From Candidatus Borrarchaeum weybense (lineage in GTDB: Archaea > Asgardarchaeota > Sifarchaeia > Borrarchaeales > Borrarchaeaceae), in the NCBI GenBank assembly GCA_019057385.1, contig JAHQJS010000008.1, forward strand, positions 128,001 to 192,000: a stretch of DNA of 64,000 nucleotides, in the 5' to 3' direction. Shown piece after piece: positions 4,888 through 59,757 of the stretch (its first letter is position 1; the number at the start of each line of letters is the position of its first letter). The notes under the pieces are model-generated. The model saw only the letters and a program-made list of their open reading frames with translations. It did not search any database and had not been told where the DNA came from. The position numbers and the translations under genes were made by a program.

Positions 4888-5329
4888 CTTTATCAGCGGG
4901 AAGTCCACTTCCGGAAGGTGGGGGATGAAAGTCGATGGCTTTTTATAGTTTTTTTGAACTTATATACCTGGTACGGCGAGTGTACCCGTAATGCCCGACT
5001 GGGTGGAGGTATATCCTCCTGTAAGTGACCAGTCAGCAAGTGACAGGGCTAAACGTGAGGATGCCCGTGCATGAGGTCTTATCCAGCGTCAAGAAAGTCT
5101 CCTTAGTGTGTGCAGTTTGCTAACCTGCCAAGCAGGCAGGTAACAGATCAATAACATCCTGCAGGCAGATAATCAAGGGGCAGGATAAGGGTGAGCAGCG
5201 TGTGCAACCTGGTAAGCTTCCGTAAGCCCATAACTGTAGGAAAAGTGGCGAAGCGTCGCCTCCCGTGAGGGAGCGAGAACTACAATGGAAAGCTGGAAGC
5301 CCCATCCGAAAGGCTGGGGAGGATGTCAC
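4888..5329 (+). mobile_element. Non-autonomous IS200/IS605-type mini-element (left end + omega-RNA-like region + right end), TTTAA class
   Basis: TTTAA at 4883-4887, then LE hairpin cagcgggaagtccacttcc...gggggatgaaag; ends ggaagccccatccgaaaggctggggaggatgtcac; no ORF. Confidence 0.85.
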
Positions 5330-5342
5330 CAAAATACTATCC

Positions 5343-5756
5343 TTATGGCAGTTTTGGAATCATCATATATAAAAGGCCGAAATATGCTGCAATCACTGCA
5401 ATGACTCCAATAAGAAGAAGTGTCCGTGCGTAAGTTGGTTCGTAAAAATACCTTGTGCTATAGAATATGACTACAAAACCTATGAAACCCACAAACATTA
5501 ACATGCCCGCAACGATACCTTCGATGATAAATTGAGAATCAAGACTTTCATAGATTAAAACAGGGATACCATATTGTGAACCTAGTGGAAGCGGCTCTTT
5601 GACAATATCGAAAAGAAGTCCCACATAGATCGTAAAAATGAATATTATCGTTATTTGAAGGAGCAAACCTGTTGGAATCTCGGATGGAAGCTGAAGTTTA
5701 GGTTTTCTGAGAATAATTTTTGGTTTTCTGATTCCTGGAATCCATCTTAGCCGCAT
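5343..5756 (-). CDS. OSTC/DC2-like (OST3/OST6 family) oligosaccharyltransferase accessory subunit
   Basis: GLLFDIVKEPLPLGS, SQFIIEGIVAG...GFIGF and C-terminal PKLP resemble eukaryotic OSTC; 3 TM segments; ATG 5756 after GGTG. Confidence 0.8.
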   Translation of the reverse strand: MRLRWIPGIRKPKIILRKPKLQLPSEIPTGLLLQITIIFIFTIYVGLLFDIVKEPLPLGSQYGIPVLIYESLDSQFIIEGIVAGMLMFVGFIGFVVIFYSTRYFYEPTYARTLLLIGVIAVIAAYFGLLYMMIPKLP

Positions 5757-5816
5757 GGAATAGCACCTGATCACATATAAAACGTTTCTTGTTTTTAACA
5801 CAAGTTTGTGTTTTAT

Positions 5817-6222
5817 ATAACCTCCGCAATAAGACTTCATCCGCTAGGGTGGAGATGAATTGCGGTATATTTCTTTGTAAAGTGGTGGGCACCTCCCCTT
5901 TTTGCTGGGACAAGAGCAGGTGCCCCGAACTATATTTAACGACCTGTAAAGGTCAGCTCCGCAACCGCGGGTAGGTCCTCATCGCCAATGTTGGGGCAGG
6001 CACAAAACATGATGATGGTGCAGGTCTCAGGATAGCGACCTGGGTCGTCCACCATGTCTTTCAGAGCCCGGAACTTGAGGAGCATTCCAGGGTGATTTTC
6101 AGACACTCAGCACCGAACGTAGTTCATCTGCCTCCACCCTGAAGGAGACATCACTCAGGCTAATCTCTTACCCCTCTACAGGGACTTTTTCAAGCCCCTT
6201 CCGTCAGGGAGGGGTAGTTGAC
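5817..6222 (-). mobile_element. Non-autonomous IscB-type IS200/IS605 element without iscB
   Basis: Minus strand begins GTCAACTACCCC...GGGGCTTG and ends ccgcaattcatctcc...gtcttattgcggagg followed by ATAAA; no long ORF. Confidence 0.8.
5950..6222 (-). ncRNA. HEARO/IscB omega-RNA scaffold
   Basis: Ordered motifs GTCAACTACCCC, GATTAGCCTGAG, ACTACGTT, CACCCTGGAATGC...AGTTCCGGGCTCTG, AACATTGGCGA; 3' end approximate. Confidence 0.8.
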
Positions 6223-6453
6223 ATGCTTCTTTGACTTGCACCATTTTTCTTTCGGAACTTTATAATTGTTTCTGTCATAACTTGTAAACGATGATTCCCT
6301 TATAGTCTGTTTAACAAAAAAATCTTATACTATTTTGCATTATCTCCAAAATAAGTCCTTTCTTACATATTCATTGAATTTCTGAATCTTTTTTCATGAA
6401 AGTTTAACCAGAAATTGCTCGTAGAGATTCAAGTTACACAAAAGGTAAAAACG

Positions 6454-56659: not shown

Positions 56660-57619
56660 ATGGTGGAGAGTACTGAATTAACTGAAACTAAATTTACACC
56701 GGGTGTAGCTATTTCTTCTCAAGAATGTATGGAATGCGGTTCAACTGAAATTGTAATGGACTCTATTCGAGGGGAGAGAATTTGTAGTATATGTGGATTA
56801 GTAATTACAGAACATGTGATAGATACTGGTCCTGAATGGAGAGCGTTTACTTCAGATGAACGCAATAAAAGAAGCAGAGTAGGCAGTCCAGTCTCATGCG
56901 TTGTTCCTTCTATGGGACTATCAACTATGATTGGGTGGGAAAATAGAGATATTTATGGCAACAAATTGTCACCAAAAAAACGTGCCCAAATCTATAGATT
57001 GAGAAAATGGCAAATACGAACAAGATCACAAGGTTCTTATGAGCGTAATCTCTCCCACGCTATACGCGAACTAGAAAGACTTTCTAGTCAACTTGGAATT
57101 CACAATGGAGTAAAAGAATCAGCGGCTGTCATCTATCGGCGGGCTATAGAAAAAAAGTTAGTTCGTGGACGTTCAATAGAAGCTATGGTTGCTGCATCTG
57201 TGTATGCAGGTTCACGACTTAGGAAAGTTCCTCGTACCCTGGATGAGATTGCCCAGTGTACACGTGTTAATAAAAAAGAATTAGGTCGTTGCTATCGTTT
57301 AATTCTTCGAGAACTTCATATTTCAATCCCCATAGCCAGTCCAGTTGACTTCATTTCTCGTTTTAGTGAAGAATTAAAAATCTCTGGAAAAACTCAACAA
57401 CGTGCAATAGAAATTCTAAATCAAGCAAAAGAATTTGGAATTACTGCTGGTAAAGATCCAACTGGTCTTGCTGCTGCAGCATTGTATATCTCAAGCATTA
57501 CTGAAGGTGAGAGAAGAACCCAAAGGGAAATTGCAGAAATAGCAAGGATAACTGAAGTTACTGTTCGTAACCGCTACAAGGAAATTGTTAGAGTACTTGG
57601 AATAAAAATAGCTGTCTAG
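56660..57619 (+). CDS. tfb: Transcription initiation factor IIB
   Basis: CMEC...CSIC ribbon, GPEWRAF, RLRKW, GRSIE, GKDP, TEVTVRNRYKE. Confidence 0.97.
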   Translation: MVESTELTETKFTPGVAISSQECMECGSTEIVMDSIRGERICSICGLVITEHVIDTGPEWRAFTSDERNKRSRVGSPVSCVVPSMGLSTMIGWENRDIYGNKLSPKKRAQIYRLRKWQIRTRSQGSYERNLSHAIRELERLSSQLGIHNGVKESAAVIYRRAIEKKLVRGRSIEAMVAASVYAGSRLRKVPRTLDEIAQCTRVNKKELGRCYRLILRELHISIPIASPVDFISRFSEELKISGKTQQRAIEILNQAKEFGITAGKDPTGLAAAALYISSITEGERRTQREIAEIARITEVTVRNRYKEIVRVLGIKIAV

Positions 57620-57656
57620 ATATTATATTAAATGGCATTATCCTTCTTTTTTTTAA

Positions 57657-57957
57657 TTTTATTGGCGGGAAGTCCCCTTGCGCCAGCTGGGGGATGAAAG
57701 CCGCAAGGTTTTTATAGTGTTTTGCACAGAAGAGTTCTGATGAATATCGAGAGGAAAGCAGGGATACAAGACTCTTGATAGGAAGGCAGTATGGTGTGAT
57801 TTTGAAACCTGAGGGTTGCTATCACAGAATGCCAAGTGGACAGGCTATTCTCTTTAGAGGGTAATCTGCGACACACAGCCGAACGTAAAACGAAAGTTTC
57901 CCGCAAGGGTTGGGAGGACTCGCAGGAAGCCCCATCTGAAAGGGTGGGGTAGTTCAC
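57657..57957 (+). mobile_element. 301-bp non-autonomous relative of the 41359-42742 tnpB element with intact omega-RNA
   Basis: TTTAA|ttttattggcgggaagtcccc LE; 57819-57957 aligns to the tnpB 3' end/RE (41359-41504). Confidence 0.9.
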
Positions 57958-59343
57958 TGAACATGTTGATACCATCGTTTATATTCCACTAATGCCCCTA
58001 ATGTTCTAATAGCTCTTTCTGGTAGTGTATGAACTGGAATTTTGTTCCACTCTAAAAATCTTTTATATTTTTCAAATTGCTTAAATGTGCTTCCCAAGCA
58101 GGATATAATAGGTTTTTTACTGCTTTTCATAACTGCAACAAGTGTTTTGATTGTCTGAAACTCGATATTTGGACCACTTGGGATTGTTACGACAAGCACA
58201 GAATCAACTTGTGGGTCGCTTAGAATGAGTTTTGTTACCCATTCATATCTCTCCGTGTCAGCATCCGCTGCTAAATCAACTGGATTTGAAGGGGTACAAT
58301 GTTGAGGTAAACTATGCAATTGTTCAAGCGTTTTACTGCTAAACTCTGCAAGACGTAAATCATTATTTTCAAGAGCATCTGCTGCTAAGACACCATGTCC
58401 ACCACTATTTGTTATTATACCCACATTATTTCCTTTAGGTAATGGTTGAGTTGCAAAGCAATAGCAAATATCAAGGAGTTCTTCTAGATCCTTTGCAGTG
58501 ATTACACCTGTTTGTTTGAACATTGCTTTAAATGATTCTACAGAACCTGCGAGAGACCCAGTATGTGATTTTGAAGCTTTTGCTCCTGCTTCTGTTTTTC
58601 CAACTTTGCAAATAATAACGGGTTTTGCTTTAGTAACCTCTCTTAGTGTCTTGTAAAATCGTCTTCCTTCTTTTACACCCTCAACATACATTCCGATAAC
58701 TTTAGTGGTTGTATCTTGTTTTAAATATCCTAGAAGATCGCTTTCATTTACATCTATGGCATTTCCATAAGAACATGTTTTACTAATTCCTATCCCCCGA
58801 TATGCACACCATTCAAGTAGTGTTACAAGGATTGCTCCAGATTGGGATAACAACGCAATATTTCCTTTTGTTGGATATCCTATTGTCCTTTCACGTGGTA
58901 CAAGAAAACTATTGATTCCAGAATAAGGATCAAATATACCAATACAATTTGGACCAATGATTTGCATTCCATACTTATGAGCAATTTTTGTGATTTCATT
59001 TTCTCTTTCAGTTCCTACTTCATTTCCTGTTTCTCCAAAGCCTCCAGTGACAATTATAATTACTTTAACTCCCTTTTCTCCGCATTCTTGAACAATCTTA
59101 GGAACTTGTTGTGCTGTTAAAGCTATTATTGCAAGATCCACAGATTCAGGAATATCCTTTATTTTGGAATAAACAGGAGTGTTCAAGATTTCATCTGCAT
59201 AAGGATTAATTGGATAAATTGTACCTTTGTATTTTTGGAGAATCATGTTCTCTAGAATTATGTACCCGATTTTTCCTTTATTCCTACTTGCTCCGATTAT
59301 AGCAACATTAAGGGGAGAAAAAAAAACTTCTAATGATATTCAT
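57954..59343 (-). CDS. acdA: ADP-forming acyl-CoA synthetase alpha subunit (frameshift in the first codons)
   Basis: VAIIGAS, YPINP, IGPNCIG, SQSGA, SHTGSLAG, TNSGG, NPVDL; ATG 59343 is one base out of frame. Confidence 0.85.
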
Positions 59344-59429
59344 ATCACCTTAAGTAGTAGATTATTATTTGTTTTAATTGCATGATTCGTTCTGTAATCT
59401 TTTAGATGTTTCAGCCTTAATTTTTTTAT

Positions 59430-59757
59430 CTAATTTCGCAAGAAGACTCCTCAACTTGTGGGGGGGATGAATTGCGGTAGAGTGTCTTACTTTCACGCAG
59501 GTCACCCTAAACTTAAATAGTAGTTACCTATCATCTAAATGTATAGTATGCTGAGGTGTCTGGCTTGGCGTTAAGGGCGTAAACAAGACACAGTACCGAT
59601 GAGGGTACTGTCGGACCTCAAGTGTCCCTTGAGGGACGGGGGCTGCCGTGGACCAGCCCGAAATGTCGATGACTAGGTTTAATGTGACCAACCGTGTTGG
59701 CTAAGCAGAACAGCCTAGGAGGGCAGAAGCTACCTAACTTGTTTGGTGGTAGTTCAC
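59430..59757 (+). mobile_element. Non-autonomous IS200/IS605 mini-element with omega-RNA, TTTAT class
   Basis: TTTAT|ctaatttcgcaagaagac...gggatgaattgcgg; cttaaatag; ends gagggcagaagc...ggtagttcac. Confidence 0.83.

What the first reader, a model, noticed from the sequence alone, without database searches (positions are those of the whole stretch)
4888..59757. Dispersed library of ORF-less omega-RNA expression cassettes (guide-only IS200/IS605 mini-elements)
Seen: eleven protein-free elements (4888, 5817, 24632, 26116, 26900, 28362, 28654, 33980, 34121, 57657, 59430) plus a solo scaffold (38874), about one per 5 kb and nearly all intergenic. Most keep LE hairpin, a TATA-like box, a structured scaffold and an RE ending in TCAC/TCAG/TGAC, but have lost tnpA/tnpB. 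They form at least 6 scaffold families and 3 target classes (TTTAA, TTAC, TTTAT). Known: TnpB/IscB use transposon-end RNAs with a flank-derived guide. Inference: repeated retention of promoter + scaffold suggests these are transcribed guide cassettes that load TnpB/IscB made in trans, i.e. a distributed CRISPR-like guide repertoire in a probable Asgard genome, used for self-retention or co-opted for regulation.
Basis: partly seen in the sequence, partly recalled or inferred. Interest (0 to 1): 0.85.

Follow-up and report, generated by a model that had tools for sequence, protein, structure and literature searches.

The report
Gene-less guide-RNA mini-transposons in Asgard archaeon
The flagged repeats are real, gene-less miniature copies of IS200/IS605 jumping elements. 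Most keep a promoter and the guide-RNA scaffold used by the nucleases TnpB or IscB, which are encoded elsewhere in this Asgard archaeal genome. This kind of element is already described, so the window is a dense and clear but ordinary example.

Summary
Ten of the twelve listed sites are verifiable IS200/IS605 derivatives with copies elsewhere in the 4.18-Mb genome. Their ends match 40 tnpB and 16 iscB loci. Precise empty sites in sister genomes prove insertion 3' of TTTAA, TTTAT or TTAC without duplication.

Most elements consist of a left-end hairpin, an archaeal TATA box, a scaffold starting 22 nt later, and a right-end hairpin ending in TCAC. The scaffolds show compensatory base-pair changes, and solo copies keep their pairs as well as nuclease-linked copies.

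- Element 5817 carries an IscB-type (HEARO) omegaRNA on the opposite strand.
- 26116 and 26900 are scaffold-less micro-elements.
- 33980 is the right end of a 657-nt element into which 34121 is nested.
- An element at 61967-62349 was missed.

RNA-library contigs from four studies cover just two of the scaffolds.

The trans-guide idea is plausible, but it is already published (PATEs encoding omegaRNAs; standalone omegaRNAs working in trans). I found no sign of a CRISPR-like or regulatory repertoire. The guides are simply flanks, no second targets exist, and most insertions checked are polymorphic.

This scan has reached the same verdict on similar elements in other genomes, including other Asgard archaea. 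Verdict: new member of a known kind.

The parts
4883..4887 (+). Target/TAM TTTAA of the 4888 element
   Evidence: Sits directly before the element in 13 copies across 5 genomes. The empty site in sister genome G004 reads TTTAA followed directly by the right flank.
4888..5329 (+). 442-nt gene-less element ('E type'). It has a left-end hairpin, TATA box 4940-4947, a conserved ~360-nt scaffold at 4969-5329 and a right end finishing in GGATGTCAC.
   Evidence: Six full copies in the genome, none next to tnpB. Seven more copies occur in 4 congeners at different sites. The left end and last 28 nt resemble family A, and an internal motif is shared with the family A omegaRNA. RNA-library contigs cover 4987-5329, one ending at the right end.
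5330..5349 (+). Predicted guide of the 4888 element (3' flank)
   Evidence: Inferred from TnpB omegaRNA architecture. Similarity between copies stops exactly at 5329.
5817..6225 (+). 409-nt gene-less IscB-type element inserted after TTTAT (5812-5816), written in left-end to right-end orientation
   Evidence: Five solo copies plus one copy with an intact 409-aa IscB at C6:388842-389357. Precise empty site in G002 and G004.
5971..6222 (-). IscB omegaRNA scaffold (Rfam HEARO, RF02033). The predicted guide lies 5' of it at about 6226-6245 on the minus strand.
   Evidence: cmscan gives 71.4 bits, E 4.8e-14, full model 1-211, below the gathering score of 83. The scaffold is 96% identical to the one upstream of the intact IscB. 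RNA-library contigs of 229-240 nt from 3 studies span 5983-6223.
24632..24885 (-). Family B mini-element, about 253 nt. TATA box 24798-24805, scaffold from 24775 down to the right end at 24632. The left-end boundary is uncertain by about 3 nt.
   Evidence: 15 mini copies and 13 tnpB-linked copies. 26 of 26 consensus pairs are formed. Present at the orthologous site in G004.
26116..26159 (+). 44-nt micro-element: a single fused left-end/right-end hairpin after TTTAA, with no scaffold
   Evidence: Sequence read. It belongs to about 14 such micro-elements in the genome.
26900..26983 (+). 84-nt putative minimal element after TTTAC, ending in GGATGTCAC, with no scaffold
   Evidence: Sequence read only. 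No other copy found.
26993..27061 (+). Decayed fragment of a family D scaffold, without a right end
28362..28648 (-). 287-nt mini-element with a family-C-like scaffold, inserted after TTTAC. It is partly decayed and has no clear TATA box.
   Evidence: nhmmer family C hit. 27 of 34 consensus pairs are formed. Sequence.
28654..28855 (-). Family D mini-element, 202 nt, after TTAC (28856-28859 on minus). TATA box 28792-28800. Its right end abuts the TAM and left end of the 28362 element.
   Evidence: 21 of 23 consensus pairs are formed.
33980..34636 (-). 657-nt composite mini-element after TTAC (34637-34640 on minus). Its right end and scaffold (33980-~34100) are 93% identical to the 3' end of a tnpB element at C5:169787.
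   Evidence: The whole block is absent at the orthologous site in G001, G002 and G004.
34121..34326 (+). Family D mini-element, 206 nt, nested in the composite. TAM variant TTGC, TATA box 34176-34184, scaffold from 34206.
   Evidence: 23 of 23 consensus pairs are formed.
38851..38967 (+). Solo family B right end with the 3' two-thirds of the scaffold. It has no left end and no promoter.
   Evidence: 25 of 26 consensus pairs are formed. Shared with G004.
41359..42742 (-). Full-length family A element with an intact tnpB (ORF 41403-42647, 414 aa). It is the resident candidate effector for the TTTAA-class minis.
   Evidence: Pfam OrfB_IS605, TNB and HTH domains. Aligns with ISDra2 TnpB structures. 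Empty site in G004 and G002. TTTAA lies before the left end.
57657..57957 (+). Family A mini-element, 301 nt, after TTTAA (57652-57656). TATA box 57709-57717. The last ~167 nt are scaffold, and it lacks 91 nt that the other family A minis have.
   Evidence: The scaffold is 82% identical to the scaffold of the resident tnpB element.
59430..59757 (+). Family C mini-element, 328 nt, after TTTAT (59425-59429). TATA box 59512-59520, with a ~200-nt scaffold running to the right end.
   Evidence: 34 of 36 consensus pairs are formed.
61967..62349 (+). Internally deleted derivative of the large (545-558 aa) tnpB element type. It keeps a TATA box and the first codons of tnpB.
   Evidence: It matches both ends of the elements at C6:738-740 kb and C4:1265-1267 kb. 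Its boundaries were not worked out.

Best explanation
These are non-autonomous, gene-less miniature IS200/IS605 elements (PATE/MITE-like) in an Asgard archaeon of the Borrarchaeum/Sifarchaeum group. They arose from tnpB- and iscB-carrying elements by loss of the ORF.

Shown:
- Each inserted 3' of a short motif (TTTAA, TTTAT or TTAC) without target duplication.
- Their ends match full-length elements in the same genome.
- Most retain the omegaRNA scaffold next to the right end.
- In the TnpB-type minis the element's own TATA box now sits 22 nt before the first conserved scaffold base.
- The scaffolds evolve under base-pairing constraint.

Inferred:
- The single Y1 transposase TnpA in the genome moves all of them in trans.
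- The TnpB-type minis are transcribed from the retained tnpB promoter into scaffold plus a 3' flank-derived guide.
- The IscB-type mini is transcribed inward from its right flank on the opposite strand, giving a 5' guide plus scaffold.
- These RNAs are loaded by TnpB or IscB made from full-length copies. The complex cuts the vacant site (TAM + flank) left after excision, so the mini is copied back by recombination.

On this reading they are selfish guide cassettes that borrow both transposase and nuclease, not a host guide library.
For: Multi-copy families with ends shared with tnpB or iscB elements. The genome holds 40 tnpB loci, 16 iscB loci and 1 tnpA.

Exact empty sites in congeners exist for 4888, 5817, 33980-34636 and the full tnpB element.

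HEARO matches 5971-6222 on the minus strand (E 4.8e-14). The genome has 36 HEARO hits against 16 iscB genes.

Consensus structures have compensatory double changes in 8 of 40 pairs (family A), 15 of 23 (D), 16 of 36 (C) and 4 of 26 (B). Column-shuffle means are 0.4-4.5, and controls with the pairing partner slid by 1-3 columns (run for B, C and D) give far fewer canonical pairs.

Solo copies form 94-99% of consensus pairs, against 93-99% for tnpB-linked copies.

Family A minis deleted the Zn-ribbon-coding loop but kept its closing stem with compensating changes.

In family B minis the scaffold is 85-99% identical between copies, while the promoter-to-scaffold spacer is about 55% identical.

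The TATA box end to conserved scaffold start is 22 nt in the 4888 type, family B and the family D copy at 34121 (18 nt at 28654), which is the archaeal TATA-to-start distance (own knowledge of archaeal promoters).

About 14 scaffold-less 45-nt micro-elements show that the scaffold is not needed for mobility, yet scaffold-bearing solo copies number about 106.

RNA-library contigs from 4 studies coincide with two scaffolds.

Published precedent: PATEs often encode omegaRNAs that must be used in trans (10.1101/2023.03.14.532601). Standalone omegaRNAs have been shown to work in trans (PMC10691335).
Against: No direct evidence of transcription of these loci. The RNA contigs are 91-97% identical, so they come from related copies. 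Contigs cannot show RNA ends or strand, and DNA carry-over in RNA libraries is not excluded.

No binding or cleavage data exist.

The 4888-type scaffold has no adjacent tnpB in any of the 5 genomes searched, so its partner (family A TnpB is my guess) is unproven.

Families A, C and D have a non-canonical RuvC-II residue. Published work reads the glycine form (A, C) as a rearranged active site. The glutamine form in D was not evaluated.

The within-genome copies are related by descent, so conservation partly reflects youth rather than selection.

For the IscB-type mini no promoter is defined. It would have to lie in the flank.
Confidence: 0.75

Rival explanations
1. They are plain non-autonomous transposons (MITEs). 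The scaffold is kept only because it lies beside the right end and the copies are young. The RNAs, if made, are not used by TnpB or IscB and give the element no advantage.
For: Many copies are 85-96% identical, so they are recent. Decayed or scaffold-less members exist at 26116, 26900, 26993, 28362 and 38851. Micro-elements of about 45 nt spread without any scaffold. No functional data exist.
Against: The scaffold is clearly more conserved than the neighbouring spacer and left end within the same copies. Compensatory changes occur. Structure-preserving deletion of a coding-only loop occurred in family A minis. The same promoter-to-scaffold junction is seen in four TnpB-type families examined. 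Scaffold-bearing solo copies outnumber micro-elements by about 7 to 1.
Confidence: 0.18
2. The solo cassettes are a host-level, CRISPR-like distributed guide repertoire, or have been co-opted for gene regulation in the manner of TldR-type nuclease-dead TnpB.
For: There are many solo guides (about 106) against about 51 effector-linked ones. Two insertions (24632 and 38851) are shared with a sister genome. Families A, C and D lack the canonical RuvC-II glutamate.
Against: No guide has a second perfect match anywhere in the genome; only chance-level 15-20-nt partial matches occur. Once the element is inserted, the TAM is no longer next to the flank, so the resident locus is not a target. Four of six comparable insertions are polymorphic between congeners. 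The effectors sit in mobile multi-copy elements. The glycine substitution in A and C matches a published rearranged, presumably active, clade.
Confidence: 0.05
3. They are unrelated structured ncRNA genes or REP-like repeats that merely resemble transposon ends.
For: GC-rich structured islands in AT-rich intergenic DNA.
Against: Both ends are shared with tnpB or iscB elements, there is a HEARO match, and sister genomes carry precise empty sites.
Confidence: 0.01

Closest known systems
PATEs (palindrome-associated transposable elements) of the IS200/IS605 superfamily, named in Haloquadratum walsbyi (PMC3119063) and seen in Geobacillus stearothermophilus (10.1101/2023.03.14.532601)
   Same: Gene-less elements with sub-terminal palindromes. 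Their ends are shared with tnpB/iscB elements, they depend on TnpA in trans, and they often encode omegaRNAs that need TnpB in trans.
   Different: Here they occur in an Asgard archaeon, at high density and diversity (about 7 scaffold families in 55 kb). An archaeal TATA box sits exactly one promoter distance before the scaffold. A series runs down to 44-nt single-hairpin micro-elements.
Standalone (effector-less) omegaRNAs of OMEGA systems, as summarised in PMC10691335 with reference to the 2021 OMEGA paper
   Same: Mobilised omegaRNA loci without a nuclease or transposase, in genomes that also hold effector-containing loci. They are reported to work in trans with compatible effectors.
   Different: No functional test was done here. 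Both TnpB-type and IscB-type solo scaffolds coexist, outnumbering linked ones about 2 to 1.
HEARO RNA (Rfam RF02033), the IscB omegaRNA
   Same: 5971-6222 (minus strand) matches the full model. A near-identical copy precedes an intact iscB gene. It lies at the transposon right end and is read inward, as Meers et al. describe.
   Different: The window copy scores 71 bits, below the curated 83-bit threshold, and has lost iscB.
sotRNAs / TnpB omegaRNA at the 3' end of IS1341-type tnpB in archaea (PMC4615843); ISDra2 TnpB-omegaRNA (PDB 8exa, 8h1j)
   Same: The scaffold overlaps the 3' end of tnpB and runs to the right end, with the guide formed by the following flank. The resident TnpB aligns with ISDra2 TnpB over residues 10-380.
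   Different: In the minis the ORF is gone, so the scaffold would be transcribed directly from the former tnpB promoter. The 4888-type scaffold is unusually long (about 360 nt) and has no linked tnpB.

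Membership tests
IS200/IS605 non-autonomous elements (PATE/MITE) | Insertion 3' of a short conserved motif with no target-site duplication; excision would restore the site exactly | tested here: met
   Empty sites in congeners for 4888, 5817, 33980-34636 and the tnpB element 41359-42742. 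The junctions read TAM followed directly by the right flank.
IS200/IS605 non-autonomous elements (PATE/MITE) | Different sub-terminal hairpins at the left and right ends, no terminal inverted repeats, and ends shared with full-length family members | tested here: met
   Alignments. BLAST of minis against full elements.
IS200/IS605 non-autonomous elements (PATE/MITE) | No protein-coding gene inside | tested here: met
   No ORF of 100 aa or more lies inside any mini. Copies differ by 1-2-nt indels.
IS200/IS605 non-autonomous elements (PATE/MITE) | A Y1 TnpA transposase available in trans and able to move them | tested here: inconclusive
   One intact Y1_Tnp gene (E 6.5e-38) lies in a family A element at C7:194221. 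Its activity on the minis is not testable here. Polymorphic insertions show past mobility.
TnpB omegaRNA | Scaffold homologous to the region overlapping the tnpB 3' end and running to the right end | tested here: met
   nhmmer profiles from the minis hit the 3' ends of 35 tnpB loci in the same orientation. The tnpB stop lies 61-62 nt before the right end in family B. Block-by-block homology in family A.
TnpB omegaRNA | Conserved secondary structure supported by covariation | tested here: met
   Weakest for family B, with 4 covarying pairs against a shuffle maximum of 4.
TnpB omegaRNA | Transcribed, with a 3' guide of about 16-20 nt read from the flank | tested here: inconclusive
   RNA-library contigs cover the 4888-type scaffold up to and 4 nt past the right end. 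They come from related copies and cannot show RNA ends or strand.
TnpB omegaRNA | Bound by a cognate TnpB and directs TAM-dependent DNA cleavage | not testable with these tools
   Candidate effectors exist.
HEARO / IscB omegaRNA (RF02033) | Match to the covariance model | tested here: inconclusive
   71.4 bits, E 4.8e-14, full-length match, but under the 83-bit gathering score. 28 other copies in the genome pass it.
HEARO / IscB omegaRNA (RF02033) | Lies immediately upstream of iscB, at the transposon end | tested here: met
   For the family: the 96%-identical scaffold at C6:389432-389682 sits directly upstream of a 409-aa IscB. The window copy itself has lost iscB.
CRISPR-like or domesticated guide repertoire (e.g. 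TldR-type) | Guides match targets other than the element's own insertion site | tested here: not met
   Of 121 flank guides, each has only its own perfect 20-nt site in this genome. Viruses and plasmids were not searched.
CRISPR-like or domesticated guide repertoire (e.g. TldR-type) | Immobilised loci conserved at orthologous positions | tested here: not met
   Four of six comparable insertions are absent in congeners. Two (24632 and 38851) are shared with G004.

The most novel reading that the evidence does not exclude
The ~360-nt 4888-type RNA has its own promoter and an extra 5' domain. It has no linked tnpB in any of five genomes of the genus, is nearly invariant across them, and is present in sediment RNA libraries. 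It may have escaped dependence on a matching full-length element. It could be a hyper-parasite that hijacks family A TnpB with a re-engineered scaffold, or an RNA exapted for a TnpB-independent or host-serving role. More broadly, the 2:1 excess of solo guides might mean that solo cassettes, not the nuclease-carrying elements, are the main beneficiaries of TnpB and IscB in this lineage.
Probability: 0.07. Interest if true: 0.7.

Novelty: new member of a known kind. Interest (0 to 1): 0.3.

Why it matters
This is a clean natural inventory. It comprises seven scaffold families, three TAM classes, TnpB-type and IscB-type RNAs, full, mini and micro forms, and exact empty sites.

It gives ready-made effector/guide/TAM triples from an Asgard archaeon for biochemical testing. 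It also offers a natural data set on which parts of an omegaRNA are dispensable: the minis have trimmed coding-only loops while keeping the stems.

It does not open a new concept. Solo omegaRNAs working in trans and PATEs carrying omegaRNAs are already in the literature.

Tried and rejected
- Rfam at gathering thresholds over the whole window found nothing. Only the E-value search of 4800-6300 revealed HEARO. The 4888-type scaffold matched no Rfam family.
- There are no tRNAs in the window.
- An exact-pattern scan of genome contigs with a left-end 44-mer found nothing, because the window's own records are withheld.
- Search for a tnpB beside 4888-type scaffolds: none in the own genome, none at three short-variant loci in G000, G002 and G004, and none at a G018 locus. 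A G005 locus was cut by the contig end.
- Search for second targets of 121 flank guides gave only chance-level partial matches.
- Laying RNA-library contigs: no cover on 4500-4968, 5840-5973 or 6242-6500 in any run. Because the contigs come from relatives at 91-97% identity and the neighbouring genes of congeners are only 83-93% identical, this lack of cover on flanks says nothing.
- I first considered that the RuvC-II glycine in families A and C meant dead nucleases, which would have favoured a regulatory reading. I dropped this after reading that this substitution defines a published rearranged, presumably active, clade.

Full report
WHAT THE WINDOW IS

The window is contig C8:128001-192000 of a 4.18-Mb, 37% GC, 8-contig assembly. 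It encodes archaeal TFB, archaeal pilins and a Roadblock/LC7 protein. Its prolyl-tRNA synthetase is 88-91% identical to those of MAGs named Candidatus Borrarchaeum, Sifarchaeum and Promethearchaeota, and about 50-55% identical to Heimdallarchaeota.

CHECK OF THE OBSERVATION

It also shows a full tnpB element at 41354-42750. Alignments of each block with its genomic copies show that similarity starts right after a short motif and stops at a terminal ...TCAC, TGAC or TCAG. The flanks are unrelated in every copy.

The genome holds 40 tnpB loci (33 with ORFs of 330 aa or more), 16 iscB loci and a single Y1 tnpA. The left and right ends of the minis match those of the full-length elements, on the expected sides and strands.

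Sister genomes of the same genus carry exact empty sites:
- G004 reads TTTAA followed directly by the right flank where 4888-5329 sits.
- G002 and G004 lack 5817-6225 precisely.
- G001, G002 and G004 lack the block 33980-34636.
- G004 and G002 lack the tnpB element 41359-42742.

Insertion 3' of a fixed motif with no duplication is the signature of IS200/IS605 transposition. Two insertions (24632 and 38851) are shared with G004.

CORRECTIONS TO THE LIST

(1) The structured RNA in 5817-6225 is an IscB omegaRNA. Rfam HEARO matches 5971-6222 on the minus strand over the full model (71.4 bits, E 4.8e-14, under the 83-bit gathering score). A 96%-identical scaffold lies directly upstream of an intact 409-aa IscB at C6:388842-389357. 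Its guide would therefore be the minus-strand sequence right of 6225, and its TAM the complement of TTTAT. [quoted passage not shown] Any promoter must lie in the flank, so this one is not a self-contained 'promoter + scaffold' cassette.

(2) 26116-26159 is a 44-nt single-hairpin micro-element. It is one of about 14 in the genome. 26900-26983 is an 84-nt look-alike with no other copy. Neither has a scaffold. 26993-27061 is a decayed family D scaffold fragment.

(3) 33980 is the right end of a 657-nt minus-strand element (33980-34636), and the family D mini 34121-34326 is nested inside it.

(4) 38851-38967 is a solo right end without a left end or promoter.

(5) An internally deleted derivative of the large-tnpB element type at 61967-62349 was missed.

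ANATOMY

The TnpB-type minis share one plan:
- TAM;
- left-end hairpin;
- TATA box (TTTTTATA, TTTAAATA or TTTATATA);
- a variable spacer;
- the conserved scaffold;
- right-end hairpin;
- TCAC.

In full-length family B elements the same TATA box precedes tnpB. Homology between mini and full element breaks about 20 nt after it and resumes about 155 nt before the right end. The tnpB stop codon lies 61-62 nt before that end.

From the end of the TATA box to the first conserved scaffold base is 22 nt in the 4888 type, family B and the family D copy at 34121 (18 nt at 28654). This is the usual archaeal TATA-to-start distance (the distance rule is my own knowledge).

Family A minis keep two blocks that are separated in the full element by the Zn-ribbon coding segment. 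The stem closing that segment is retained with compensating changes, while the coding loop is replaced by a pentaloop.

IS THE SCAFFOLD CONSTRAINED?

Consensus folds of mini plus tnpB-linked copies give compensatory double changes as follows:

| Family | Pairs with double changes | Column-shuffle mean / max |
|---|---|---|
| A | 8 of 40 | 0.4 / 4 |
| D | 15 of 23 | 1.7 / 5 |
| C | 16 of 36 | 4.5 / 9 |
| B | 4 of 26 | 0.7 / 4 |

Energy z-scores range from -8 to -21. Sliding the 3' partners by 1-3 columns, done for B, C and D, drops canonical pairing from 95-99% to 27-56% and roughly halves or worse the covarying pairs.

Solo copies form the consensus pairs as well as tnpB-linked ones: 0.96 vs 0.93, 0.99 vs 0.99 and 0.94 vs 0.97. 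Window copies form 21-26 of 23-26 pairs (families B and D) and 34 of 36 (59430). The exception is the decaying 28362 element at 27 of 34.

Within family B minis, pairwise identity is 85-99% in the scaffold but about 55% in the spacer and 60-85% in the left end.

These copies are relatives within one genome, so part of this conservation reflects youth. The pattern is nevertheless what selection on an RNA would give.

CENSUS

Solo scaffolds with an intact right end:

| Family | Solo copies |
|---|---|
| D | 45 |
| B | 23 |
| C | 7 |
| 4888 type | 7 |
| A | 4 |
| Total TnpB-type | 86 |

By comparison, 35 TnpB-type scaffolds are linked to tnpB. For HEARO, 20 copies are solo and 16 are linked to iscB. 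There are about 14 scaffold-less micro-elements.

The 4888-type scaffold occurs in all four congeners at different sites, always without tnpB at the loci I inspected. It shares its left end, TAM, right-end hairpin and an internal motif with family A. Family A TnpB is therefore my guess for its partner.

EXPRESSION

Only Logan contigs of RNA libraries were available. In four independent metatranscriptome studies, contigs cover 4987-5329, with one ending 4 nt past the right end. Contigs of 229-240 nt also cover 5983-6223, which is just the HEARO scaffold.

These contigs are 91-97% identical, so they come from related copies. They cannot show strand, RNA ends or abundance, and DNA carry-over is possible. 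This is a weak positive for two families and says nothing about the others.

EFFECTORS

The resident TnpB (41403-42647) has the OrfB_IS605, TNB and HTH domains and aligns with ISDra2 TnpB structures. Family B TnpBs have the canonical RuvC-II glutamate. Families A and C have glycine there, and family D has glutamine. The glycine form corresponds to a published clade read as a rearranged active site (PMC10691335), so I do not read families A and C as dead. The glutamine form in D was not evaluated.

MECHANISM

Shown: these are non-autonomous IS200/IS605 derivatives carrying constrained omegaRNA scaffolds behind a retained promoter element.

Inferred: the one TnpA moves them, and the RNAs use TnpB or IscB from full copies. 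The complex cuts the vacant TAM + flank site after excision, so the mini is restored by recombination. [quoted passage not shown].

The guides are simply flanks. None of 121 has a second perfect site in the genome, and most comparable insertions are polymorphic. I therefore see selfish cassettes, not a host guide library or a regulatory system.

COMPARISON AND NOVELTY

[quoted passage not shown] PATEs were named in a haloarchaeon (PMC3119063).

Earlier follow-ups in this scan reached the same verdict on similar elements in other genomes, including other Asgard archaea and phages. Several unchecked first-reader notes describe the same families elsewhere in this genome.

What is particular here:
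- the density and variety in one window;
- both nuclease classes side by side;
- the exact promoter-to-scaffold spacing;
- the structure-preserving trimming;
- the micro-element series;
- the long orphan 4888-type scaffold.

That makes it a new member of a known kind, with modest interest.

Noticed in passing
window 61967-62349: A 383-nt intergenic block matches both ends of the large (545-558 aa) tnpB elements at C6:738-740 kb and C4:1265-1267 kb. It keeps a TATA box and the first codons (MTSLTLSYPLKF...) of that tnpB. It looks like another ORF-deleted derivative, with an end unlike the TCAC type.
   Followed up: partly
window 33975-33983 and 34637-34640; 26111-26115: TAMs overlap stop codons. 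The Roadblock/LC7 gene (33615-33983) ended in CTG TAA at the empty site. After insertion of the 33980 element it ends in CTC TGA, with the last base of the Leu codon and the stop supplied by the element's right end, so the protein is unchanged. The TTTAA before the 26116 micro-element contains the stop of the ThiI-like gene.
   Followed up: partly
genome-wide, e.g. C4:817183-817222, C6:740463-740502, C7:213987-214026, C5:7226-7263: About 14 micro-elements of 37-40 nt plus a short leader occur at different sites. Each is a single hairpin made of the 5' half of a left end and the 3' half of a right end, placed after TTTAA or TTTAT. They may mark the minimal substrate of the TnpA.
   Followed up: partly
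window 1-1504 (ORF 2-1489, 495 aa): This ORF has no Pfam match, and its DNA is repeated up to 18 times in the genome. It is an uncharacterised multi-copy gene family or mobile element.
   Followed up: no
window 28904-29203: A short ORF with a faint IS1595-type transposase zinc-ribbon match (E 0.009, below cut-off) lies next to the element cluster. It may be a decayed transposase remnant.
   Followed up: partly
window 56660-57619: The TFB (TFIIB) gene belongs to a family with about 6 DNA-level copies in the genome.
   Followed up: no
window 59782-61857 and 62361-63998: Two tandem paralogous genes are 75-83% identical at the DNA level with a 2576-nt spacing. The first carries a GH57 domain; the second was not scanned. 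The deleted tnpB derivative lies between them.
   Followed up: no
genome: tnpB families A, C, D: The RuvC-II catalytic glutamate is replaced by Gly (A, C) or Gln (D), while family B keeps Glu. The only tnpA in the assembly sits in a family A element.
   Followed up: partly
window 38843-38875: A (CAT)n microsatellite of about 11 units directly precedes the solo family B right end.
   Followed up: no
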